Shown here piece by piece: positions 23,614 through 51,469 of a stretch of DNA of 64,000 nucleotides. The position numbers and the translations under genes were made by a program. Below the pieces are notes generated by a model, which searched no databases, was not told the DNA's origin, and was given only the letters and a program-made list of their open reading frames with translations. Numbering within the stretch: the first letter of the stretch is position 1; every line of letters starts with the position of its first letter. Origin of the DNA: Felixounavirus LF110P1; sequence record OZ035744.1. One strand, 5' to 3'.

Positions 23614-24513
23614 TTACTTACCTACTGACAGAGGTGCTTCAATCTTCCCTGCATGTTGGTAGTTGTTAATGCCACCAATAAAATCACTTGCAGTGAGATG
23701 TTTTAGGTCACTTAAAGTGTTAAGTGGGATACCAATCTCAAAAGTTGGTGCATGGAACTCTTCATTGTTCATCAGTTCATAAACCTGCTTCATATGGTTC
23801 TGATAAATCTGAGTATCTCCAAAGACACCTATCAAATATCGTGGAGTGTATCCAGTCATCTTACAAAGGACTTCCAGAATAAAACCATAAGATGCAATGT
23901 TAAACGGAAGCCCTAAAAAGGTGTCTACAGAACGCTGATACCATTGTAAGTCAACTTCACCCTCGTTGGTGATATAAATCTGAAACAGAACATGACAAGG
24001 TGCTAAAGCCATTGAGTTTGCTGCAATATCTGCTGCATTCCAAGCGTTAACAAGCATGTAACGGTCTGTGATATCACCCTTCATCTTCGCTACTAAGGTC
24101 TCTAACTGGTCTACAACACAACCATCATGACCCTCAAAGTTTCTCCACTGAACCCCGTAGATTCTACCACCTGCATCCTCTAACCAGTCTTGTTCAGAGG
24201 AATAATTAGAGCTTAACCAGCGTTTAAAATCATCTGACCAGATAGTCCAGCGTTCCCCATCATTTTCACCCCAAGTACGGTAACGAAGTTCACCAAGTTT
24301 ATTCTCACCATTCAGGAACCATAAAGCTTCCCCAATAACTTGCCGTGTAAACACCTGTTTAGATGTTAAGAGTGGGAAACCAGTTCGCATATCAAAACGA
24401 AACTGTGGTGGAGCAAATGCAGAGATAACATCTCCAGTTCGTGTAGTACGCAGTTCACCAACGGATAAAACATGGTTCAGGATATTTTTGTAACTCAAAT
24501 CAGCTTGTGACAT
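23614..24513 (-). CDS. thyA: Thymidylate synthase (ThyA-type)
   Basis: Active-site motif MALAPCHVLFQIY plus DLQWYQRSVDTFLGLPFNIASY, characteristic of ThyA. Confidence 0.9.
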   Translation of the reverse strand: MSQADLSYKNILNHVLSVGELRTTRTGDVISAFAPPQFRFDMRTGFPLLTSKQVFTRQVIGEALWFLNGENKLGELRYRTWGENDGERWTIWSDDFKRWLSSNYSSEQDWLEDAGGRIYGVQWRNFEGHDGCVVDQLETLVAKMKGDITDRYMLVNAWNAADIAANSMALAPCHVLFQIYITNEGEVDLQWYQRSVDTFLGLPFNIASYGFILEVLCKMTGYTPRYLIGVFGDTQIYQNHMKQVYELMNNEEFHAPTFEIGIPLNTLSDLKHLTASDFIGGINNYQHAGKIEAPLSVGK

Positions 24514-24514
24514 A

Positions 24515-25060
24515 TCAAAAGTGTCCTTTTACTTGTGGAACATAAATTTCAAAGGTTGCTTTACCATCATCCGATGGCCTTGACTGTACCTTTGCAAATA
24601 CACGGCTATCATACAGCTTCTCAAAGAAGTTTTCAAAAGGTAAATGCACAGTGGCCTCTTCAGTAACTTTATGGAAGACTGTATGGAACACCACACCAGC
24701 ATACGGTAAAGCATTGACAAGGACACCTGCACCACCAATTACAAAGACATCTTCATCAATAGAGCTATCAAGATACTTCAAAAATGCTCCAAATGACTCT
24801 TTACTGGCTTTAGCATACATTACATCATCTTTGCCAAAGTCTATGCCTAAGTATGGTACAGAATTTGTTAAGATTAGGTTTGCACGTTCTGGTAGAGGTT
24901 TACTACCCAGAGTCTTAAAAGTCTCATTACCCATCACTACTAAGTTATTTTTAGTGAGTCTCTTAAACTCTTGCATGTCCTGTTTATGTCGAGGCCACGG
25001 CATACCAGTTGGAGTACCAAACTCACCATTTTCACCACTTGCAAAGATTAATTTAATCAT
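24515..25060 (-). CDS. folA: Dihydrofolate reductase
   Basis: N-terminal MIKLIFASGENGEFG...MPW and VVMGNETFKTLG...PLPERANLILT pattern typical of DHFR; adjacent to thymidylate synthase. Confidence 0.8.
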   Translation of the reverse strand: MIKLIFASGENGEFGTPTGMPWPRHKQDMQEFKRLTKNNLVVMGNETFKTLGSKPLPERANLILTNSVPYLGIDFGKDDVMYAKASKESFGAFLKYLDSSIDEDVFVIGGAGVLVNALPYAGVVFHTVFHKVTEEATVHLPFENFFEKLYDSRVFAKVQSRPSDDGKATFEIYVPQVKGHF

Positions 25061-26207: not shown

Positions 26208-26507
26208 TTAATCTGCCAGCCTTAAATTGAAATTAACACCAAATTTTTCACATACCCCCAACATATACTCAAGGGAAACATTCCCAGTGAGGTGGATTAT
26301 GTTGGATACACGAGCCTGAGAGATACCACAAATTTTAGCAACTTGCTCTTGAGAAAGACCTCTGGATTTAATCTCTCTCTTAAAACGATGTGCAACGAAG
26401 TCTCTCATTTCGTCTACATCCATTGGACAAATATAACTCTCCATTTCAGCCTCTCTATCAGCCTCCCAATCATCTTGTGGGGCATAAGGGTCAAAAACCT
26501 CATTCAT
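26208..26507 (-). CDS. Helix-turn-helix (XRE-like) DNA-binding protein; start at 26507 or 26537
   Basis: C-terminal LSQEQVAKICGISQARVSNIIH helix-turn-helix signature; acidic N-terminal region. Confidence 0.5.
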   Translation of the reverse strand: MNEVFDPYAPQDDWEADREAEMESYICPMDVDEMRDFVAHRFKREIKSRGLSQEQVAKICGISQARVSNIIHLTGNVSLEYMLGVCEKFGVNFNLRLAD

Positions 26508-26712
26508 CTTTCTTCTTCCGTTTGCGTGAAGTGTCAATCAATGAGTCTATGTTAGTAGCCCTGACCTTTTCACGTTCATCGTTAAGATAATCGTCAAGAG
26601 CCTTTTCAATCTGTGAATCATCTTGACAGATAACTGTAAAGACTGTAAAGCCGTCTGTATCGTCAATTATCTTACCATAACCGCTTCTGGGATGTAACTT
26701 TTTAAGAGCCAT
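26500..26712 (-). CDS. Small hypothetical protein upstream of and coupled to the HTH gene
   Basis: 70 aa; 8-nt overlap with the ATG of the HTH ORF; basic C-terminus SRKRKKKDE. Confidence 0.4.
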   Translation of the reverse strand: MALKKLHPRSGYGKIIDDTDGFTVFTVICQDDSQIEKALDDYLNDEREKVRATNIDSLIDTSRKRKKKDE

Positions 26713-27521: not shown

Positions 27522-27710
27522 TCAACAACTTTCTAATAAAGTTTTATGAAGACTTTGCTTAACAACCCGCCTCACATGCCTATGCTCTTTCTTAATAAAG
27601 AGTGACCTCTTCTTGACAGAGCGCCTATTCTTGTAAGTATTACTAGGATACTTATCATGAACCGGACAACAACTCCCCGGATTTGTAAACTTGATAATCT
27701 CTCTTTTCAC
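27522..27710 (-). CDS. Small basic protein (possible; coupled to ligase stop)
   Basis: 62 aa, Lys/Arg-rich; ATG overlaps the ligase stop by 1 nt. Confidence 0.3.
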   Translation of the reverse strand: MKREIIKFTNPGSCCPVHDKYPSNTYKNRRSVKKRSLFIKKEHRHVRRVVKQSLHKTLLESC

Positions 27711-28849
27711 TATTCATAATCCCTAATAACTAGCCCTACAGGGAACTGTAAAGACCCCTTACGAGTCATCTTCTGGAACTGAACCGTTAAAGGTTTCCCG
27801 ATAAACTCTTCAGGATGTTCAGCAAGATACTGTTTCTTCTCGTGTGTAGTTTTCCATGAGACATCTACAAAGACGTTAGGAAGAGTCTCTACAACGAACT
27901 TGCCATGACCACGTTTATCGGTCTTTACACCAGTCACTTTAAACTCTTCAGTGTGCATCTTCTTGTGCTTAATCAAGAAGTATGAACGGTGACCACACTC
28001 GTAGAAAGATTCTTCAGAGATTGAGCGGTACATTGCACCTTCAAACTTAGCTTCAACCCACTTATCATGAGCTTCATCAAACTCTTCCCAAGAATTTACA
28101 CGACGAGACTTAACAGGGACAACTTTACAGCCATCTCTAAAGTCATTCAATGGTGAAGTCTCAATAATATCTCTACGCTCAGGCCACGTCTTAGTACTAT
28201 CACAGATATCGTACCAGTAAAACTTAAGTAAATGTCTGTCAGGATTGTCTTCATTTTTAATCATGGAGACAATATCTTCTAAGTCCAACCCATGAGCATA
28301 GATTTCACCATCAAATTCATCAACATCTTTATGGAGCCTTAACATTGCCATAATGTCAGGTATTAGTTCAGTAGGTATTTTGTAAACAGTATTCTCACGA
28401 GAATATGCTGTAAATACACTACCAATGCTTAAGTGCCTTGAAATCCTACAACGGACACCATCAAGTTTCGGTTGAGCATCAGCAGGGAACTTCAGATACT
28501 TTGCATGGCTAACCTTTGCAGCATCATGAGCAAGTTGTACACCAACCTTCTCAGTGTTCTGTGCAGACTCTTTTGTGTAAGCATAACCTTTGCGGTCAAC
28601 TTGCTTTTTATACTTAGCAGCAACTTCAAAGAGAGCTTGCTGTTCAGCATTACGCTCATTCTTTTTACCGATGTTCTTAGTCTCTGCTGTGTACTCTTCA
28701 AACATCATCTTACCATTTTCTTTACCGTAGGTTGTGATAACTTTGTCACCTACAGAAACACATGACCAGACATTGAAAGAGCCATCTTTATTTTGTTTGT
28801 ACAGTATTGTCATTTTATTCCTCTGAGTGATACCAAGTATTGCAAGCAT
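27710..28849 (-). CDS. ATP-dependent DNA ligase
   Basis: Adenylation motif I PKLDGVR (KxDG), motif IV EGAMY, motif V FLIKHKK. Confidence 0.85.
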   Translation of the reverse strand: MLAILGITQRNKMTILYKQNKDGSFNVWSCVSVGDKVITTYGKENGKMMFEEYTAETKNIGKKNERNAEQQALFEVAAKYKKQVDRKGYAYTKESAQNTEKVGVQLAHDAAKVSHAKYLKFPADAQPKLDGVRCRISRHLSIGSVFTAYSRENTVYKIPTELIPDIMAMLRLHKDVDEFDGEIYAHGLDLEDIVSMIKNEDNPDRHLLKFYWYDICDSTKTWPERRDIIETSPLNDFRDGCKVVPVKSRRVNSWEEFDEAHDKWVEAKFEGAMYRSISEESFYECGHRSYFLIKHKKMHTEEFKVTGVKTDKRGHGKFVVETLPNVFVDVSWKTTHEKKQYLAEHPEEFIGKPLTVQFQKMTRKGSLQFPVGLVIRDYE

Positions 28850-29006
28850 TACATGCGTAAAGCTCTAAGTCATTTTTATCCGGTTTATGAAAGCAGTTTG
28901 CTCCGCAGTGGCAACGGAATGGCCTTCCACCAACTGTCAGGATGAAGGATTGAACCTTTCCATCAGGAGTTCGTACAGCATTTTTATGCTTATCTTCTTT
29001 GTTCAT
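28815..29006 (-). CDS. Small Cys-rich zinc-binding protein
   Basis: CHCGANCFHK ... CNACNTWYH; 63 aa. Confidence 0.35.
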   Translation of the reverse strand: MNKEDKHKNAVRTPDGKVQSFILTVGGRPFRCHCGANCFHKPDKNDLELYACNACNTWYHSEE

Positions 29007-29209
29007 TTTCTCTTACCACCAACCTCTACGTCGATAACTTGAACATCGCCAGCAACATCAAACTTATGAATGATGCTTTCCACAGTGTAAGTCCAACCAT
29101 CAATGCGAACCAACTCACCTTCTCGTGGGACGATTGGATTACGTTGAGCTACGGTTGTAGTGGAGTGAACAACATCATAACAATAGATATAGTTTACTAG
29201 GACTTCCAT
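29003..29209 (-). CDS. Hypothetical protein
   Basis: 68 aa ORF, coupled starts. Confidence 0.3.
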   Translation of the reverse strand: MEVLVNYIYCYDVVHSTTTVAQRNPIVPREGELVRIDGWTYTVESIIHKFDVAGDVQVIDVEVGGKRK

Positions 29210-29218
29210 ATCTTCACC

Positions 29219-29473
29219 TTAAAAGAATAAGTCAGATGCTTTTGGGTTGATTAAACTCATGCAGTTTTGAAGCATGGCTTCATTGTACCCATCTTGGCAA
29301 ACTACGTAGAGTTTATCGAAAGTTTCTTTTGATGCTGGGGAGACTGATAACTCTTGGCATACACTAAGATACCATTCGTAATCTAAGCCTCTGCTCCAAG
29401 CGTCAGCGATTAGGGATGTAGCTTTGTCTTTGCTTCTGATAACTTCATCAGACTTTTCAATTTTACTGTTCAC
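29219..29473 (-). CDS. Hypothetical protein
   Basis: 84 aa ORF (GTG start in the track). Confidence 0.3.
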   Translation of the reverse strand: MNSKIEKSDEVIRSKDKATSLIADAWSRGLDYEWYLSVCQELSVSPASKETFDKLYVVCQDGYNEAMLQNCMSLINPKASDLFF

Positions 29474-29618
29474 GATGTTCTACCTCTCTGTACGTTCGTC
29501 GATAGTTTATAATAAGCTGTGCTAACTCGTTGCTTTTAACATCTGAACGTAGCAGTTGCCAATCAAAACCTTTACCGACTCTTCCATATAAGCTAAATAA
29601 TTTTACTTTGCGTTTCAT
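29463..29618 (-). CDS. Small ORF missing from the supplied track (51 aa)
   Basis: Hand translation MKRKVKLFSLYGRVGKGFDWQLLRSDVKSNELAQLIINYRRTYREVEHREQ; GGAG RBS 6-7 nt upstream of the ATG. Confidence 0.3.
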   Translation of the reverse strand: MKRKVKLFSLYGRVGKGFDWQLLRSDVKSNELAQLIINYRRTYREVEHREQ

Positions 29619-29635
29619 TTTGGTACTCCCAATAC

Positions 29636-29848
29636 TCAGAGGCCAATACTAATACGTTCACCCTTGAGGACTCCTGTACGGTCTCTTACAATCTTACCGT
29701 CAACAATAAGGATATGCGCAGACTTTAAAGATTCACTATTAAAACCTTTTACGAACTTACTAGGCATCACCACAATAAGCATCTCTTGAATCAACTCTGG
29801 AGTGTAGCAGTTGTCGTGAAGTTGTTGGATAACGTCTGCAAGTTTCAT
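29636..29848 (-). CDS. Hypothetical protein
   Basis: 70 aa ORF. Confidence 0.3.
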   Translation of the reverse strand: MKLADVIQQLHDNCYTPELIQEMLIVVMPSKFVKGFNSESLKSAHILIVDGKIVRDRTGVLKGERISIGL

Positions 29849-29899
29849 ATAACCTCCTATATCAGATATTGTATAAGGTACTCTTCCATGAGCACCTTG

Positions 29900-30463
29900 T
29901 CAAGATAGTTTTGCAAACTCTCCGTGGAGTTTCACAGCAGCTTCACAGTAAGCTTTATGGGCTTCTTCAGGGGTGTCAAACATACCAAGATGATAGTTTT
30001 TACCTTGTAAACGAATCATTGCTCTAAATCTTACACCTATCTTCTGCACACCTTTTGGCAACCCAGATAGGGACTTTCTTGACCGATTGCAAGAGTTTTG
30101 TGAAGCTGTACAAACCCTTAAATTCAAGTACCTATTGTCCCAACCATCACCATTCTTATGGTCAACCTGTAAGGTTTTATCAGGCAGGTATCCATCCACA
30201 TATAGTATTGCTAGACGGTTAGCTTGGTAGCCTTTACCATCAAGCAATAACTGAACAGACTTGTGACCGTCTGTGTTTATCCTATAATTTCCTGCCTTTT
30301 TACCTCCAAAACGAGAGTTGAAGTTCTTATTGCCTCGTGATACCGGCTCTCTAAACTTCCAAGTAAAGACCCCTGTTTCGGGGTCGTAGTCCAATAGCTC
30401 CTTAAGACGAATTTCTGTAATCATTTCAACACCATCAATGTACTTCCAACCAGCTCTTACCAA
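29900..30463 (-). mobile_element. Free-standing HNH homing endonuclease (NUMOD4-like N-terminus, HNH core, AP2-like DNA-binding C-terminus)
   Basis: LKELLDYDPETGVFTWK (NUMOD4-like); QVDHKNGDGWDNRYLNLRVCTASQNSCNR (HNH); GVRFRAMIRLQGKNYHLGMFDTPEEAHKAY (AP2-like); start overlaps the 3' end of the polymerase gene by 29 nt. Confidence 0.7.
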
Positions 30464-33164
30464 CCTTACCTGTGCCAGTTACAAGTGTCTCACTCTTCAA
30501 ACCTAAATTCTTAGATGCCTGACCATACATCCAGTCAGTTATGGCTTTAACTTCTTGAGTCATACTTTCTGGGCATTCCCAACTGTTTTCATCGTGGTAT
30601 GCCAGCAAAAGCCTAGCACCAATTGCTGGTTTTCGTCCATTTAATTTTGTCAGTCCTTCTTCACATGCTCTTCTACAAGCAAGGTTAATTGCCTCATTTT
30701 GAATCTGAGCCTCCGAACCCATAAGCAAATAATTCAATAACTTATGTGGAGATTTGCACCACAACCAAGCTCCAGCAACTTTTACAAAGCCCCCTTTAGA
30801 GATTGCAGCAGTCTTACCAAATACCTCTTCAAGTGCCTTTTTAGTTGCTTTGTAGTCAGCTTCCAAGTCATCTAGCAGCTTTTTAATTTTAGGCAAACGA
30901 ATAAAGTAAGTCTGTTTAGTCAGCGCACCTTCCTGAGTAGTTGCAGCCTTAATCGTCTTAGCAAACTTCTCATCACCTGCACCGAACAGCAGTGCATAGA
31001 TACCATTCTTAGCTTTCTTACGACCCTTGCTAATCTCATGAAGAAGATTCTCATCCTGAGTAGCTCGACAAGTCAAGATGTCCTGCTCATCGTTCAAGTT
31101 AAAGTAAATACTGTTCAGTGTATGTGCATCAGTCCCTGAATAGACAACGTACAGGTCATTCTCAGAGTCATAGCGAAGGTACTTATCAATCTCTGGGTTG
31201 AGGTACTCATCAAAGTGTTTACAGTAATAGCGTCCATCTTCTTGACGAATGAACTCAATTTCTTCTTTACCTTGCGTTACCGCTTTGGTGAAGTCTTTAT
31301 CACCCATAAAGTTACAAAGAAGAACTAGCTGGGCTGAGTTCATATCTACAGAGACAACGTTAGTACCTTCCTCACAAATCCACACTGCCCTCATTGGTTC
31401 CCCATAGACAGCAGCACCAGATGGTACGTTTACAATACCATACTGTGTCATACGTCCAGTTGAAGTACCAAACACCATTGCACCAGCACTAAGGCGACCA
31501 TCAGGACGAATCTGGTTCAACCAACCTTTTTCATCATCCTTTGAGTTCTCAATAGTTCTGCGTCGGTGCATCAAAGTGTAGTATTTAGCAATCTTCTGTC
31601 CAAGCTCACCTTCAATCGTATCGTAAGATGATTCAGTAAGTTTTGGTGAAGTACGGATTAAGCAAGGCTCAAGCAAATCTGTGTACTTCTTCACAGACCA
31701 GTTATGCTCAATGTACTGGACGCCTTCGTGTTCAACATAACTCAAACCACACCGCTCAACCATTTCCTGCCACTTAGGATGCTTTGTAATCATCTTTTTA
31801 TTGTCTTTGAAACGACAAACTTTGACAGGGCGACCATCAGAGTCTTTCTTGTAGTTCCAGTCATCTGGAATCCAACCAACTGATTTCAAGTAGTCTTTAA
31901 CAACTGCTACCTGAGTCATACGAGAAACTTCAAACTCAATTGGTGTATATGGTGCATCAATCAAACCTGTGTAGCGACTTGACTCAAGTTCAAAGTGGTT
32001 AACAACGTGGCTGTTATAGTACTTCACAGTTTTGACTGTTTTTACTGGCTTCCAGTCTTTGCATTTCTTGCCAATCTTTGCGTTCAACTCATTGCAAATT
32101 GCACGAGCATCCTTCATTGCTACAAAGCCTTCCTTGTACTCTTCACCAGTTACAGTGTTGGTTGGTGTATAGCAATTCCTTTTTTCAATGTTAAAAATCT
32201 TTGTAGTTGGCTTACCAAATGGTTTGATTTCGTATGTCTGCATCTCGCCATTACGTACCTGCTGACGATACTTTGTCTTAGGGTACTTGGTAATTCTTTT
32301 CAGTCCATCTGCATGACCAAATGTTTCAACATACTCATTCCAAGCTTTTGCAAACTCTTCTCCAGTGACTTTACCTTTGGTCTTAATAGTTGGAGGTAGA
32401 TGTGGTTCAACCTCTGAAGCAAGCTCATTAGTCAACTTGTCAAGTTCCTTTACATGGAACTCCATAAGCTCTTTATCAGCTTTCCAACCATTGATAGCTT
32501 GTTGACTCATCCAGAAAGATGTTTCTTTAGCTCGCATGTAGGTTTCATAAGTGTCTATGCCACACTTCTTAAGCTTGAGATACTCATTATCAAGTGCCCG
32601 TTTAGTTTTGGCGTTAATACGGATATCTTCTACAACACGAGTGAAGATTTCTGCATTCCACACACCCCAATGTTCAATCTCTGGTTTACGAACACCGACA
32701 CGAGCACCCCATGCAGCCAAACCATGAGCACCTTTATAACCCTTTGGAGTTGGTCTATCCATCCACTGAACACGAGACTGGATAAGAGAATCCTGAAAGA
32801 AATTACTCCACGGTTTACACTTTGGATTATCAAAGTTCCATAAATCGGGTGCAATGTGATTGAAAACCCACCAGTCATAACCAAGACCATTATGAATGCA
32901 AAGACGTTTTGCCTTTAACGCAAACTCAATACCTTCACGTAAGCCACCCTTAATGTACTTGGTATACTTGTGACCGAGGATAGGCTCATCTGTAAAGACC
33001 CATACAGGTGGCTCTTCATCGTCAGATTTATAGTCTGCGAAAGCCATTACGTGCACTTTAGTGAACTCAAGGAGTAAACCATCAGTTTCTGTATCACCAA
33101 CTAAATGTAAGTTTTTAAAATCTACGTTTTCCATTTTTACTCCCTCTAAAATCATTAACCTCAT
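30435..33164 (-). CDS. DNA polymerase, family A, with 3'-5' exonuclease domain
   Basis: Exo I motif VGDTETDG; VVSVDMNSAQLVLL (motif A-like), KNGIYALLFGAG (motif B-like), LLAYHDENSWE (motif C HDE). Confidence 0.85.
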   Translation of the reverse strand: MRLMILEGVKMENVDFKNLHLVGDTETDGLLLEFTKVHVMAFADYKSDDEEPPVWVFTDEPILGHKYTKYIKGGLREGIEFALKAKRLCIHNGLGYDWWVFNHIAPDLWNFDNPKCKPWSNFFQDSLIQSRVQWMDRPTPKGYKGAHGLAAWGARVGVRKPEIEHWGVWNAEIFTRVVEDIRINAKTKRALDNEYLKLKKCGIDTYETYMRAKETSFWMSQQAINGWKADKELMEFHVKELDKLTNELASEVEPHLPPTIKTKGKVTGEEFAKAWNEYVETFGHADGLKRITKYPKTKYRQQVRNGEMQTYEIKPFGKPTTKIFNIEKRNCYTPTNTVTGEEYKEGFVAMKDARAICNELNAKIGKKCKDWKPVKTVKTVKYYNSHVVNHFELESSRYTGLIDAPYTPIEFEVSRMTQVAVVKDYLKSVGWIPDDWNYKKDSDGRPVKVCRFKDNKKMITKHPKWQEMVERCGLSYVEHEGVQYIEHNWSVKKYTDLLEPCLIRTSPKLTESSYDTIEGELGQKIAKYYTLMHRRRTIENSKDDEKGWLNQIRPDGRLSAGAMVFGTSTGRMTQYGIVNVPSGAAVYGEPMRAVWICEEGTNVVSVDMNSAQLVLLCNFMGDKDFTKAVTQGKEEIEFIRQEDGRYYCKHFDEYLNPEIDKYLRYDSENDLYVVYSGTDAHTLNSIYFNLNDEQDILTCRATQDENLLHEISKGRKKAKNGIYALLFGAGDEKFAKTIKAATTQEGALTKQTYFIRLPKIKKLLDDLEADYKATKKALEEVFGKTAAISKGGFVKVAGAWLWCKSPHKLLNYLLMGSEAQIQNEAINLACRRACEEGLTKLNGRKPAIGARLLLAYHDENSWECPESMTQEVKAITDWMYGQASKNLGLKSETLVTGTGKVGKSWLEVH

Positions 33165-39013: not shown

Positions 39014-40054
39014 ATGGAGAAGTACACATTAACAAAACTTCCCGATTCAGTTACACATGTTTTTATTGACTCTGACAGTATTGCCTATAAAGGTGCTTGT
39101 GTAGTTGAGAAATCAAAATATAAATACGTCAATAAACTCACAGCAGAAGAATCTGAGCCATTTGATAATGCGAAAGATGCTGCAAGATGGTTAGCAGACC
39201 AGAGAATCCTTGTGGAAGAACTTGGCCTGACATTTGATGAAGATGAATGGGAAAGACAGACTTGGAAAGAAGCTAAGAGTGAAAAAGAAGCTATCATGGC
39301 TACTCAACAGGTGCTTCAGGAATGGCTTAAGATTGTTGGTAAAGAAAGAACTTGGGTAGGCTATTTAACAGAGAAAGGTGTGCATAAACATAAAGACATT
39401 AAAGGTCTTGAGCACCAATATCAAGGTAACCGTAAAGATGCTGTCACACCAACACACTTAGTTGCTTGTCGTGAATACCTTTTATCCAGACCAGAGTTCA
39501 AGCTCTTAAAGGGGGGCTTCGAAGCCGATTCAATCGTAATTGCTAAAGCTGAAAAGATGGGTAAGAAGGCTGCTCTTATGAGTATTGATAAAGACCTTCG
39601 ACAAGCTGAAGGAACTTATTGTATTGATATGACTTATGAAAAATCACCACTAATCTTTATTGCTGATAATAATGTTGGTGATATCTGGGATTGTCCTATC
39701 AAATCAAAACCAAAAGCTGCAAAAACAGTTGGTGTAGGTTTTAAGTTCTTATGCTATCAGGCTGTTGCTGGAGATAATGCAGACAACTACTTCGGACTTA
39801 AAGGTGCTGGTAAAGTAGCTGTGATGAATGCTTTAGATGGTAAAGAGACCTACAAAGAGTGTCTTGATGCTATCTATGAACTCTATGCTAAAAAAGACTC
39901 TTATACCTATGTGTCATGGGATGGACAGACTGTTACAAAGACACCGTTAGAGTTAATGGAACAGCATTTCTGGATAGCATATCAAGAGAGAAATCCAAAA
40001 GACAATTTCTCTTTCAAGAAATATAATTGGGAGCCGTGTATGAATGAAGATTAA
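39014..40054 (+). CDS. 5'-3' exonuclease/flap endonuclease (RNase H-like)
   Basis: HVFIDSDSIAYKGA, GFEADSIVIAKAE, MSIDKDLRQ and GDNADNYFGLKGAGKVAV align by eye with conserved T4 RNase H/FEN blocks. Confidence 0.6.
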   Translation: MEKYTLTKLPDSVTHVFIDSDSIAYKGACVVEKSKYKYVNKLTAEESEPFDNAKDAARWLADQRILVEELGLTFDEDEWERQTWKEAKSEKEAIMATQQVLQEWLKIVGKERTWVGYLTEKGVHKHKDIKGLEHQYQGNRKDAVTPTHLVACREYLLSRPEFKLLKGGFEADSIVIAKAEKMGKKAALMSIDKDLRQAEGTYCIDMTYEKSPLIFIADNNVGDIWDCPIKSKPKAAKTVGVGFKFLCYQAVAGDNADNYFGLKGAGKVAVMNALDGKETYKECLDAIYELYAKKDSYTYVSWDGQTVTKTPLELMEQHFWIAYQERNPKDNFSFKKYNWEPCMNED

Positions 40055-40541
40055 AGGATTTGGCAATTGCCCTACCTACGGTCATTGGGTATCTTTATGT
40101 GGGGAAGTTGACCCCACTAAACATTTTGGCTTTGTCTATTTAGTACACTGTAAGAAGACTGGACAATATTATATAGGAAAGAAACAGCTTAACAGTGTGA
40201 CCAAAAGAAAAGTTGCTGGGAAGACTCGGAAGAAGGTAGTCACTAAGGAAAGTGATTGGATGACTTACGAAACCTCTTCTGAGTATATTAAAAAAGATAT
40301 TGAGAGCTTTGGAAAAGAATTTTTTGACTTTTACATTATTCAGACCTACTACACAAAAGGTGGCCTAGTCTATGGTGAAGCAAACCTTCAACATAAATTC
40401 GATGTAATGACAAAAAGGATTGACTCGAAGCTCAGACTCTTCTACAATGCCAATATTGCAGCAATTAAGTTTATTACTAAAGAAACTTATGAAGATGCTG
40501 AAAAAAGAATCCATAAGGTAATGAAAGCAAATTGTGCTTGA
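40044..40541 (+). CDS. GIY-YIG-like nuclease domain protein (putative)
   Basis: FGFVYLVHCKKTGQYYIGKK matches a GIY-(x10)-YIG spacing; 165 aa. Confidence 0.35.
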   Translation: MKIKGFGNCPTYGHWVSLCGEVDPTKHFGFVYLVHCKKTGQYYIGKKQLNSVTKRKVAGKTRKKVVTKESDWMTYETSSEYIKKDIESFGKEFFDFYIIQTYYTKGGLVYGEANLQHKFDVMTKRIDSKLRLFYNANIAAIKFITKETYEDAEKRIHKVMKANCA

Positions 40542-50953: not shown

Positions 50954-51469
50954 ATGTATCTGTCAAACCTAAAACGTTCTGCTGCAATGTCAGTGCTAAG
51001 ACTCAGCTTTGAGGAACGTCAAGAGTTCATTGACTCCCACCAATACGACCCCTCAAACTCCAATCACATGATTCTCTGGAATCGTGAAAGTACTCGTGAA
51101 AGAGCACTATTCCGTTATTACCCACACTACACTATAGATAACCTGTATGAATTGTTTGTTGTGAAGAACACCATTACAGTGCTCAATAAACTTTGCAGAT
51201 ACACAGGCAGTCAATCCTTCACATTAGGCCATCACAAACCTGTTACAAAGGGTGGTGAGCATCACTGTGCAAACTGGTTTATTCAGACTAAACTTGATAA
51301 CCAGAAGCAAGGGGATAACCTTCTAAGCACCCCTAAGATGACCTACGAAGAGCAAGAGAAATATATCAAAAATAATATGCCAGATGTGCTTGACAACCAC
51401 TATACAGATTTGGCAATATCTCTCCTGTTGAAGTTCGAGACAGTTTATAGGGCAACTTACAATGGCTAA
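50954..51469 (+). CDS. HNH-like nuclease motif protein (putative)
   Basis: LGHHKPVTKGGEHHCANWFIQTKLDNQKQGDN resembles an HNH core (HH...N...N). Confidence 0.3.
   Translation: MYLSNLKRSAAMSVLRLSFEERQEFIDSHQYDPSNSNHMILWNRESTRERALFRYYPHYTIDNLYELFVVKNTITVLNKLCRYTGSQSFTLGHHKPVTKGGEHHCANWFIQTKLDNQKQGDNLLSTPKMTYEEQEKYIKNNMPDVLDNHYTDLAISLLLKFETVYRATYNG

What the first reader, a model, noticed from the sequence alone, without database searches (positions are those of the whole stretch)
29900..30463. HNH homing endonuclease inserted at the 3' end of the DNA polymerase gene
This is a three-module endonuclease (NUMOD4-like, HNH, AP2-like) whose start overlaps the last 29 nt of the family A polymerase ORF. 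Homing endonucleases often target conserved replication genes and mark sites of recent horizontal insertion. Two further nuclease-like ORFs (GIY-YIG-like at 40044..40541 and HNH-like at 50954..51469) flank the nucleotide-metabolism genes.
Basis: partly seen in the sequence, partly recalled or inferred. Interest (0 to 1): 0.45.

Follow-up and report, generated by a model that had tools for sequence, protein, structure and literature searches.

The report
Free-standing HNH–AP2 homing endonuclease gene
A small selfish nuclease gene sits just after the DNA polymerase gene of a Felix O1-like phage; relatives carry it, carry other versions of it, or have an empty site, which is ordinary for phage homing endonucleases.

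Summary
The window is a Felixounavirus (Felix O1-like myophage).

**What the gene is**
- It lies on the minus strand at 29900..30424.
- It encodes a 174-aa protein with an I-HmuI-like N-terminal/HNH_3 nuclease half and a C-terminal AP2-fold DNA-binding domain.

- The NUMOD4 assignment fails the profile test.
- The 29-nt overlap with the polymerase exists only for the mechanical TTG start. The conserved start is ATG 30424, 10 nt after the polymerase stop.

**Evidence that it is mobile**
- The gene fills exactly the gap between the polymerase stop codon and a conserved TTGACA box. Its own stop codon lies inside that box.
- In 41 related loci the site is empty in 17, including the Erwinia-phage outgroup.
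- The other 24 carry one of four divergent, intact endonuclease families (43–54% aa identity in the three aligned pairs). Within-family dN/dS is 0.04–0.24.
- All four families share a nearly identical final ~60–70 nt.
- Endonuclease-free close relatives match the window's polymerase at 93–99% until about 240–310 nt before the stop. Identity then falls to 70–80%, which looks like a co-conversion tract.

**Verdict:** this is textbook free-standing homing-endonuclease biology. The gene is already annotated at this position in Felix O1 and many relatives, so interest is low.

**Side lead:** relatives carry an ORF-less group I intron in the polymerase gene, and in a spread sample it occurs only together with this endonuclease.

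The parts
29900..30424 (-). Probable endonuclease gene: ATG 30424..30422, stop TGA 29902..29900, 174 aa
   Evidence: ORF. The ATG start is shared by all type A alleles and lies close to the start of the B-group alleles. HNH_3 plus AP2. AlphaFold model with pLDDT 93.5.
30425..30463 (-). Upstream extension of the mechanical ORF (TTG 30463), overlapping the polymerase end; probably not translated
   Evidence: These 13 codons are the polymerase 3' end read in another frame. B-group and type D alleles lack an equivalent, and Tf uses a different upstream ATG that is absent from the window.
30227..30424 (-). N-terminal region (aa 1-66): helix plus beta strands, conserved L-x-YDPETGVFTW motif; I-HmuI-like, not a profile-supported NUMOD4
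30092..30226 (-). HNH_3 nuclease motif (aa 67-111), D88-H89 ... N101 ... N113
   Evidence: PF13392, 45 bits against a cut-off of 24.8. N101 and N113 are invariant and D88, H89 at least 90% conserved in 100 homologues.
29909..30055 (-). AP2-fold DNA-binding domain (about aa 124-172: three strands plus a long helix)
29903..29968 (-). Shared 3' tail of the gene, 93-100% identical at nucleotide level among six of the seven endonuclease-carrying GenBank loci and most IMG/VR loci, across all four otherwise divergent families
   Evidence: Sliding identity between families. Homology to type D, B and C carriers resumes at window positions 29968-30006. An identical or near-identical C-terminal peptide ends ...KLHGEFAKLS in most alleles.
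29904..30434 (-). The inserted cassette relative to empty-site relatives; it takes the place of 'TTAGTA'
   Evidence: Homology to endonuclease-free relatives ends at window position 30439 and resumes at 29903. Junction sequences.
29849..29903 (-). Conserved intergenic leader: TTGACA (29898..29903), a 17-nt spacer, TACCTT, then AGGAGG and the ATG of the next gene; a probable weak sigma-70-type promoter. The endonuclease stop codon lies inside TTGACA
   Evidence: Unique in the window. Present directly after the polymerase stop in every empty-site relative, including Erwinia phages, where it reads TTGACA-N17-TATCTT. The consensus scan did not call it, so promoter function is inferred.
30438..30745 (-). 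Polymerase 3' block linked to the endonuclease in the window's lineage; a co-conversion-like tract
   Evidence: Endonuclease-free close relatives are 93-99% identical upstream. Identity drops to 70-80% from about 30745 (L003, L005, L019, L022) or about 30672 (L004, L018, L024) to the stop. Type A and type D carriers stay at 94-100%.
30435..33164 (-). Family A DNA polymerase gene, uninterrupted (909 aa). The site where relatives carry a group I intron corresponds to window positions 30989/30990 and is unoccupied here
   Evidence: Pfam DNA_pol_A and PHROG 17. Gap of 0 in the window against 268-311 or about 800 nt in relatives. No Rfam match in the window.
30368..30385 (-). 6-bp GC-rich hairpin GACCCC-GAAACA-GGGGTC followed by TTTACTT, inside the conserved YDPETGVF codons
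   Evidence: Terminator-like hit. The same nucleotides occur in A and B alleles and a near-identical string in C. The fold of the surrounding RNA is not unusual, z=0.41. Function unknown.
29636..29848 (-). Next gene downstream (70 aa, no family match), served by the conserved leader
   Evidence: Homologous ORF directly follows the empty site in TP1 and EC6.

Best explanation
This is a free-standing homing endonuclease gene of the HNH_3-AP2 type, in the same family as the nickase I-HmuI for its nuclease half.

**Expression (inferred).** It sits in the intergenic gap after the DNA polymerase gene. It is probably co-transcribed with the polymerase and translated from ATG 30424, which follows a weak GGTG Shine-Dalgarno-like sequence.

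**Action (inferred).** In a mixed infection with a relative that has an empty or differently occupied site, the protein would use its AP2 domain and N-terminal sheet to bind a specific sequence at or near the polymerase 3' end or junction. The HNH motif would then nick or cut there.

**Spread (inferred).** Recombinational repair from the endonuclease-carrying genome would copy the gene, plus a few hundred bases of adjacent polymerase sequence, into the cut genome. The carrier's own site would be protected by the insertion and by linked, mostly silent substitutions.

**Shown here:** domain identity and fold, intact catalytic residues, purifying selection, exact insertion boundaries, presence/absence and allele turnover among relatives, and a linked divergent flank.

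**Not shown:** cleavage, the target site, whether the cut is a nick or a double-strand break, and the expression route.
For: - **Domains and fold:** HNH_3 above the Pfam cut-off and an AP2 match; PHROG 99 at 1.5e-58.
- **Catalytic residues:** N101 and N113 invariant and D88, H89 nearly invariant in 100 homologues.
- **Polymorphism:** 17 of 41 related loci are empty at exactly this site, including the Erwinia-phage outgroup.
- **Allele families:** four divergent families (A, B-group, C, D) occupy the same site, all with intact ORFs of 167-178 aa.
- **Selection:** dN/dS within families is 0.04-0.24.
- **Rarity of this allele:** the window's allele, type A, is full-length in only 27 of the 158 phage records that match it at all; 263 records match the polymerase-ligase region.
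- **Linked flank:** endonuclease-free close relatives diverge sharply over the last 240-310 nt of the polymerase gene, with at least two different breakpoints.
- **Recent swap:** locus L013 is 98.6% identical to the window over an alignment spanning the polymerase gene and the start of the endonuclease gene, but carries a type D core.
- **Literature:** HNH-AP2 endonuclease genes are known in phages, 29% of one such family lie near DNA polymerase genes, and turnover at fixed positions is described (PMC10448857; read).
Against: - No biochemical evidence exists for this protein or any allele at this site. I found no paper characterising them.
- The target site cannot be deduced from sequence.
- The linked divergent flank could reflect ordinary homologous recombination of a diverged block rather than endonuclease-initiated repair.
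- Flank haplotype and endonuclease state are not perfectly associated. For example, endonuclease-free L018 shares part of its polymerase 3' haplotype with L026, which carries a B-group allele.
- The loci are phylogenetically related, so counts are not independent events.
Confidence: 0.8

Rival explanations
1. The gene is a homing endonuclease, but its target is the intron insertion site 555 nt upstream in the polymerase gene rather than the polymerase 3' end or junction. It would act as the trans-acting mobility enzyme for an ORF-less group I intron. This is 'collaborative homing', as described for F-CphI and the psbA intron of cyanophage S-PM2. The window would then be the intron-free state.
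For: - Relatives carry a group I intron (RF00028, 62-63 bits, cut-off 50) inserted at the polymerase position that corresponds to window 30989/30990.
- An even-step sample of the ranked phage records gave these counts. ORF-less intron: 13 with the endonuclease, 0 without. No intron: 18 with, 13 without. Intron carrying its own Endonuclease_7 ORF: 2 with, 4 without.
- Fisher's exact test for the ORF-less against no-intron comparison gives p=0.004, uncorrected for phylogeny.
- The arrangement is discussed in the literature (PMC10448857; PMC6083498, listed).
Against: - The window's polymerase sequence around 30989/30990 shows no mismatch to that of endonuclease-free, intron-free relatives (L003, L019) for about 35 nt on the downstream side and more upstream. 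An enzyme aimed there would also cut its own genome.
- The endonuclease-linked divergent block starts 245-320 nt downstream of that site, not at it.
- Eighteen sampled genomes, and the window itself, carry the endonuclease without any intron.
- Hitchhiking of the intron within co-conversion tracts, or plain linkage within clades, explains the association equally well.
Confidence: 0.15
2. The gene is a domesticated nuclease or DNA-binding protein that benefits the phage rather than spreading selfishly. Possible roles are exclusion of competing relatives, host DNA degradation, or transcriptional regulation of the adjacent promoter through the AP2 domain.
For: - Purifying selection within families.
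- The stop codon is embedded in the TTGACA box of the downstream leader.
- The 3' tail next to that box is held at 93-100% nucleotide identity across families. This could reflect a regulatory constraint.
Against: - About 40-45% of relatives lack any gene at the site and are viable isolates.
- Four divergent families replace one another at the same position, which fits selfish turnover better than a fixed function.
- Marker exclusion by homing endonucleases is mechanistically the same process, so this is not a distinct explanation.
- Purifying selection is also expected for an actively homing gene.
Confidence: 0.1
3. The gene is an inactive relic of an old insertion, on its way to being lost.
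For: No activity has been measured. The gene has no promoter of its own that the consensus scan could detect.
Against: - The ORF is intact in all 24 occupied loci.
- Catalytic residues are conserved.
- dN/dS is 0.09-0.24 among type A alleles.
- The structure model is confident throughout.
Confidence: 0.04

Closest known systems
Felix O1 ORF95 (NP_944955, annotated 'HNH endonuclease') and the 'HNH (homing) endonuclease' genes annotated directly after the DNA polymerase gene in other Felixounavirus genomes, e.g. ekra_59 and Tf CDS0072
   Same: - Same genomic position, between the polymerase stop and the TTGACA leader.
- Same architecture.
- Same final ~27 residues.
- ekra and Tf are the same allele family as the window, at 92-93% aa identity.
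   Different: - Felix O1's own gene is a different family (type C), 43% aa identity to the window, and starts 18 nt before the end of the polymerase stop.
- None has been characterised biochemically. The Felix O1 genome paper only counts six HNH copies (PMC3185647).
I-HmuI (PDB 1U3E), the intron-encoded HNH nickase of Bacillus phage SPO1 DNA polymerase gene
   Same: - Best sequence match among solved structures, E=1.4e-4.
- Also associated with a phage DNA polymerase gene (established knowledge).
   Different: - I-HmuI is encoded inside a group I intron and uses C-terminal helices and a helix-turn-helix for DNA binding (established knowledge).
- The window's protein is free-standing and has an AP2 domain instead.
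- Identity is only 24%.
HNH-AP2 homing endonucleases of cyanobacteria, protists and phages (Magnani et al. 2004, cited in PMC10448857) and the 'IPA-HNH' genes of ICP1-like phages
   Same: - N-terminal HNH plus C-terminal AP2 architecture.
- Frequent placement next to DNA polymerase genes.
- Turnover of cognate genes at fixed positions.
- Position at boundaries of genetic exchange.
   Different: - The ICP1 genes are too divergent for the HNH_3 Pfam profile. This gene matches it well.
- No direct homology test against ICP1 proteins was run.
T4-type free-standing homing endonucleases (Seg and Mob proteins, e.g. MobE) and F-CphI of cyanophage S-PM2
   Same: - Intergenic position next to conserved nucleotide-metabolism or replication genes.
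- Presence/absence among relatives and co-conversion of flanking markers.
- Possible trans-mobilisation of a nearby intron (PMC2790892 and PMC2988022, listed; PMC6083498).
   Different: - Different DNA-binding modules.
- F-CphI uses an Endo VII-type motif.
- In the window no intron is present.

Membership tests
HNH_3 / beta-beta-alpha-metal HNH endonucleases (PF13392; I-HmuI type) | Profile match above the curated cut-off | tested here: met
   45.1-45.3 bits against a cut-off of 24.8, covering aa 67-111 of the 174-aa protein.
HNH_3 / beta-beta-alpha-metal HNH endonucleases (PF13392; I-HmuI type) | Catalytic His and the Asn residues of the motif present | tested here: met
   D88-H89, N101 and N113 are present. 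N101 and N113 are invariant and D88, H89, N97, N110 are conserved in at least 90% of 100 homologues.
HNH_3 / beta-beta-alpha-metal HNH endonucleases (PF13392; I-HmuI type) | Fold resembles a solved member | tested here: met
HNH_3 / beta-beta-alpha-metal HNH endonucleases (PF13392; I-HmuI type) | Metal-dependent DNA nicking or cleavage | not testable with these tools
   Needs purified protein and substrate DNA.
AP2 DNA-binding domain (PF00847) | Profile match above the curated cut-off | tested here: not met
   23.4-23.6 bits against a cut-off of 33.3, E about 7e-5. Many close homologues do carry a precomputed PF00847 assignment.
AP2 DNA-binding domain (PF00847) | Three-stranded sheet packed on a C-terminal helix, similar to solved AP2/ERF domains | tested here: met
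NUMOD4 (PF07463) | Profile match in the N-terminal region | tested here: not met
   No Pfam hit for aa 1-81, or for NUMOD4 in the whole protein, at E<=10. No PF07463 among the listed homologues. The region does align in part with the I-HmuI N-terminus, so a distant structural relationship is not excluded.
Free-standing homing endonuclease gene (functional class) | Present in some and absent from other closely related genomes at exactly the same site, with clean boundaries | tested here: met
   17 empty and 24 occupied among 41 loci. Boundaries lie at the polymerase stop and TTGACA.
Free-standing homing endonuclease gene (functional class) | Not inside an intron or intein | tested here: met
   No Rfam match in the window. 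The gene starts after the polymerase stop in a different frame.
Free-standing homing endonuclease gene (functional class) | Flanking sequence co-inherited with the gene (co-conversion) | tested here: inconclusive
   A linked divergent 240-310 nt polymerase 3' block with variable breakpoints fits co-conversion. Ordinary recombination would leave the same trace, and the association is not perfect (L018 against L026).
Free-standing homing endonuclease gene (functional class) | Cuts the endonuclease-free allele and is inherited preferentially in mixed infections | not testable with these tools
   Requires cleavage assays and phage crosses.
Collaborative homing pair (free-standing endonuclease plus ORF-less intron) | ORF-less group I intron in the adjacent gene of the same genome | tested here: not met
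   The window's polymerase gene is uninterrupted, with no intron match. Relatives do have the intron.

The most novel reading that the evidence does not exclude
In Felixounavirus the polymerase 3' region may be a two-part mobile unit. One part is the free-standing HNH-AP2 endonuclease. The other is a group I intron 555 nt upstream that has lost, or never had, its own Endonuclease VII-type gene. The downstream endonuclease would keep that intron in circulation, either by cutting at the intron site or by carrying it in long co-conversion tracts.

The four endonuclease families would swap their specificity-determining cores by recombination within a shared 5' motif and a shared ~60-70-nt 3' tail. 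The window would be the intron-free form of this unit.

In the papers I read, neither the intron (described for phage Mushroom only as a 383-bp gap between 'two polymerase genes') nor this pattern is recognised for Felix O1-like phages.
Probability: 0.25. Interest if true: 0.45.

Novelty: already known. Interest (0 to 1): 0.2.

Why it matters
**For annotation**
- The gene should be called from ATG 30424 as a free-standing HNH-AP2 homing endonuclease, not as a polymerase-overlapping three-module protein.
- The polymerase gene is intact.

**For phage biology**
- The locus is a clear, data-rich natural example of homing-endonuclease turnover: an empty ancestral site, four competing families, a shared recombination tail and a linked flank.
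- Felixounavirus phages are widely used for Salmonella and E. coli biocontrol, and mixed infections could shuffle polymerase alleles.

None of this is surprising to a specialist. The same kind of gene at the same place is already annotated in Felix O1 and dozens of relatives, and the general phenomena are published.

Tried and rejected
- **NUMOD4:** searched Pfam with the N-terminal 81 aa and the whole protein at E<=10 and found no hit. Rejected as a supported module.
- **TTG 30463 start:** rejected as the likely start. The upstream 13 codons are polymerase sequence in another frame, and no other allele family shares this start.
- **Intron- or intein-encoded endonuclease:** rejected. There is no Rfam match in the window, and the gene lies after the stop codon.
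- **Regulatory RNA structure around the start codon:** the fold is no better than shuffled sequence, z=0.41.
- **TTGACA leader as a repeated phage promoter motif:** it is unique in the window, and the consensus scan does not call it. Promoter function stays an inference from conservation, including in Erwinia phages.
- **Paralogues of the gene within the window:** none found by tblastn.
- **The two other 'nuclease-like' ORFs as mobile insertions:** both match full-length in more than 200 phage records. They are not polymorphic in the way this gene is.
- **Intron insertion site as the target:** judged unlikely, because that sequence shows no mismatch between the window and endonuclease-free relatives for about 35 nt downstream and more upstream.
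- **Literature on 'Felixounavirus' plus 'group I intron':** no paper found.

Full report
**What the window is.** The 5.8-kb stretch around the finding matches 263 phage records, most at 90-95% identity, almost all from Escherichia, Salmonella, Shigella or Citrobacter phages of the genus Felixounavirus. The window is therefore a Felix O1-like myophage. The finding lies in its replication module, on the minus strand. The order is family A polymerase (30435..33164, 909 aa), the ORF in question, five small ORFs, then an ATP-dependent DNA ligase (27710..28849).

**Checking the observation.**
- The ORF at 29900..30463 (minus strand, TTG start, 187 codons) is real. In that form it overlaps the polymerase ORF by 29 nt.
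- Pfam gives HNH_3 at 45 bits (cut-off 24.8) and AP2 at 23.4 bits (below the 33.3 cut-off).
- PHROGs gives family 99, 'HNH endonuclease', at 1.5e-58.
- NUMOD4 was not found even at E<=10, with either the N-terminal 81 residues or the whole protein.
- The large protein collection holds 880 homologues at E<=1e-5. Those listed are mostly 160-185 aa and carry HNH_3, often with AP2 and never NUMOD4, in the precomputed Pfam column.

**Structure.**
- In an alignment of 100 homologues, Y13, G18, N101, N113, G125, G147 and A155 are invariant. D88, H89, N97 and N110 are conserved in at least 90%. The HNH motif of the window's protein is therefore intact.
- An AlphaFold model built on that alignment is confident (pLDDT 93.5, pTM 0.81).
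- I-HmuI is also the best sequence match among solved structures, E=1.4e-4, aligning query aa 43-126 to its residues 28-112.
- The protein is thus an I-HmuI-like N-terminal/HNH half fused to an AP2 DNA-binding domain. The third is better described as I-HmuI-like N-terminal strands.

**The start codon.**
- Alleles of the same family in other phages share the ATG that corresponds to window 30424, 10 nt after the polymerase stop (TGA 30435-30437) and preceded by GGTG.
- B-group alleles start 3-10 nt after the stop (ATG 4 nt after in type B proper), type D directly after it, and type C (Felix O1) 18 nt before the end of the stop.
- The 13 codons between TTG 30463 and ATG 30424 are simply polymerase sequence in another frame.
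- I therefore place the gene at 29900..30424 (174 aa), with no overlap.

**Presence, absence and exact boundaries.**
- I fetched 11 GenBank loci and 31 IMG/VR loci retrieved with only the polymerase C-terminus as query.
- Empty sites read '...GAAGTACAC TAA TTAGTA TTGACAAGGTGCTCATGGAAGAGTACCTTATAC...AGGAGG...ATG'. Examples are typing phage 1, EC6, Ro111lw, JN01 and many IMG/VR contigs.
- The distant Erwinia phages have the same plan (TAA CAG TTGACA...). The empty state is therefore ancestral.
- In occupied sites the endonuclease gene fills exactly the space between the polymerase stop and TTGACA. Its own TGA lies inside cTTGACa.
- Homology between the window and empty-site relatives ends at 30439 and resumes at 29903.
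- Of 41 distinct loci, 17 are empty and 24 occupied. In the IMG/VR set, which was not chosen by endonuclease state, 17 of 31 are occupied.

**Four families at one site.**
- The occupants fall into four groups. Type A includes the window, LF82P2 at 97% nt, and ekra and Tf at 92-93% aa.
- The B-group includes two sub-lineages at 73% and 84% identity. Type C is Felix O1 ORF95, and type D includes Si3, Michonne and SP116.
- Aligned over full length, type A is 53-54% identical at protein level to type B and 43% to type C, and B is 49% to C. Type D matches B at 47-49% in local tblastn alignments.
- All 24 ORFs are intact, at 167-178 aa.
- Within families dN/dS is 0.04-0.24, so the proteins are under purifying selection.
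- The last ~60-70 nt are 93-100% identical between families at the nucleotide level. The rest of the gene is 20-60% identical.
- Most alleles end in ...DTPEEAHKAYCEAA[IV]KLHGEFAKLS, with a few substitutions in types D and B-group and in Tf.
- Locus L013 is 98.6% identical to the window over a 3646-nt alignment that spans the polymerase gene and runs a short way into the endonuclease gene, yet carries a type D core. The core of the gene has therefore been exchanged recently on an otherwise near-identical backbone.
- The window's type A allele is full-length in only 27 of the 158 phage records that match it at all.

**A linked flank.**
- Endonuclease-free relatives that are otherwise close to the window are 93-99% identical across the polymerase gene. 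These are L003, L004, L005, L018, L019, L022 and L024.
- Near window position 30745 in one group, and near 30672 in another, identity falls to 70-80% and stays there to the stop codon. The drop includes a 3-nt indel.
- Type A and type D carriers (L006, L007, L013) stay at 94-100% there.
- The changes are mostly silent. Exon-2-equivalent protein identity is 93-94%, against 100% for the 200 residues upstream.
- This is what co-conversion during homing leaves behind, and the block is the natural place to look for the target site. Ordinary recombination could give the same picture.
- The association is not perfect: endonuclease-free L018 shares part of its haplotype with L026, which carries a B-group allele.

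**Mechanism.** The best-supported reading is a free-standing homing endonuclease.
- It is probably co-transcribed with the polymerase gene. The consensus scan found no minus-strand promoter upstream.
- It would be translated from ATG 30424 and bind DNA through the AP2 sheet and the N-terminal strands.
- It would nick or cut an allele lacking it, somewhere in the last ~300 bp of the polymerase gene or at the junction.
- It would then be copied in by recombinational repair, together with flanking sequence.
- By analogy with I-HmuI and related HNH_3 enzymes, which are strand-specific nickases (established knowledge), a nick rather than a double-strand break is plausible.
- Cleavage, target and expression are inferred, not shown.

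**Comparison with what is known.**
- Felix O1 itself has an annotated HNH endonuclease (ORF95) directly after its polymerase gene. The genome paper reports six HNH copies (PMC3185647).
- The window's own allele family is annotated 'HNH (homing) endonuclease' in ekra, Tf, Alf5 and others.
- HNH-AP2 endonucleases are an established family. A 2023 survey describes such genes in phages, their frequent placement by DNA polymerase genes (29%), turnover of cognate genes at fixed positions, and their position at boundaries of genetic exchange (PMC10448857).
- I therefore rate this as already known in kind and in place. The population-level details worked out here are new only as documentation.

**The other two ORFs named in the finding.**
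- 40044..40541 matches the SegE-type GIY-YIG domain (9.4e-28). It is present full-length in all 216 phage records that match it, nearly all at 90% identity or more, against 263 that match the polymerase-ligase region. It therefore behaves as a conserved gene, not a polymorphic insertion. PHROGs and some RefSeq records label it 'NAD synthetase'.
- 50954..51469 belongs to an unknown-function PHROG. It has only a weak HNH-family match (2.4e-4) and no Pfam HNH hit. Its sequence contains ...GHHKPVTKGGEHHCANWFIQTKLDNQKQ..., which resembles a minimal HNH motif. It is conserved in 207 records. I leave it as unresolved.

**A side lead outside the window.**
- Many relatives have their polymerase gene annotated in two pieces. 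In Tf, GEP101 and BPS15S6 the 268-311-nt insertion, at the position equivalent to window 30989/30990 and 555 nt before the polymerase stop, matches the group I intron model at 62-63 bits (cut-off 50).
- In EC6-type phages the insertion is about 800 nt and contains an Endonuclease_7-family ORF (5.9e-20).
- The window has no intron.
- An even-step sample of the ranked phage records gave 50 classifiable Felixounavirus records. ORF-less intron: 13 with the downstream endonuclease, 0 without. No intron: 18 with, 13 without. Intron with its own ORF: 2 with, 4 without.
- Fisher's exact test gives p=0.004, not corrected for relatedness.
- This pattern is what collaborative homing or endonuclease turnover would produce (PMC10448857).
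- Against the downstream endonuclease cutting at the intron site: that sequence shows no mismatch between the window and endonuclease-free relatives for about 35 nt downstream and more upstream, and the linked divergent block begins 245-320 nt further downstream.
- The Felix O1 paper states that introns are absent. The Mushroom announcement describes 'two genes' separated by 383 bp without calling it an intron. No paper in the library pairs Felixounavirus with 'group I intron'.

**Verdict.** The finding is a correct identification of an ordinary, already-annotated element, with two details to fix. Interest is low (0.2). The most novel reading still open is a two-part mobile unit, endonuclease plus ORF-less polymerase intron, with core-swapping among endonuclease families. 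I give it about 0.25 probability and moderate interest if true.

Noticed in passing
L001 4057-4332 (Tf), L008 3285-3568 (GEP101), L010 3055-3338 (BPS15S6); equivalent to window 30989/30990, which is unoccupied: An ORF-less group I intron (RF00028, 62-63 bits) interrupts the polymerase gene of many relatives, which are annotated as having two polymerase genes. It does not appear to be recognised as an intron in the papers I read. In a spread sample it occurred only in genomes that also carry the downstream HNH-AP2 endonuclease (13 with, 0 without).
   Followed up: partly
L002 2778-3260 (EC6); also L016, L017, L020, L021 (insertions of about 780-805 nt): In some relatives the same polymerase insertion is about 800 nt and contains an Endonuclease_7-family ORF (Pfam 5.9e-20). 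This is probably the intron's own homing endonuclease. In the spread sample four of six such genomes, and four of the five such loci fetched here, have an empty site after the polymerase stop.
   Followed up: partly
window 30368-30385 (minus strand): A GC-rich hairpin, GACCCC-GAAACA-GGGGTC followed by TTTACTT, lies inside the conserved YDPETGVF codons about 40 nt into the endonuclease gene. It is kept at the nucleotide level in families A and B and nearly so in C. It could attenuate read-through from the polymerase gene or serve as a recombination point, but neither was tested.
   Followed up: no
window 40044-40541 (plus strand): A GIY-YIG domain-only protein (SegE_GIY-YIG, 9.4e-28) is present full-length in all 216 phage records that match it, nearly all at 90% identity or more. 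It therefore looks like a fixed, possibly domesticated gene. It is labelled 'NAD synthetase' in PHROG 447 and some RefSeq records, which looks like a mis-annotation.
   Followed up: partly
window 50954-51469 (plus strand): A conserved hypothetical protein (PHROG 3500, 207 records) contains a GHHKPVTKGG...N...N string resembling a minimal HNH motif. It has no Pfam HNH hit.
   Followed up: partly
window 29849-29903 (minus strand) and the equivalent in all relatives: The 55-nt leader, with a perfect TTGACA, a 17-nt spacer and a weak -10-like hexamer, is conserved from Felixounavirus to Erwinia phages. It always abuts either the polymerase stop or the endonuclease stop.
   Followed up: partly
window 28850-29848 compared with L001, L004, L006, L007: The small ORFs between the endonuclease and the ligase are mosaic. 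A 210-nt ORF lies just downstream of the endonuclease gene, or of the polymerase gene in endonuclease-free Ro111lw, in Tf, ekra, GEP101, bumzen, Felix O1 and Ro111lw. It is absent from the window, and other small ORFs are swapped between relatives.
   Followed up: no
relatives (warpig, ekra, adrianh, HMD-P8 and others): Several relatives have the DNA ligase annotated as two genes. In ekra the second is only a small 192-nt ORF adjacent to the main gene, so this may be an annotation quirk rather than a real interruption. The window's ligase (27710..28849) is intact.
   Followed up: no
GenBank GU169904 (Staphylococcus phage SA1), MG065664 and MG065668 (Campylobacter phages A132, A126): Records named for Staphylococcus and Campylobacter phages contain Felixounavirus sequence at about 90% identity to this locus. 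This suggests contamination or mislabelling of those records.
   Followed up: no
window 26208-26537 (minus strand); 23614-25060 (minus strand): A Cro/CI-type helix-turn-helix protein (HTH_3, 3e-9) lies downstream of the ligase. Thymidylate synthase and dihydrofolate reductase genes follow. No Rfam family reaches its gathering score anywhere in the 64-kb window.
   Followed up: no
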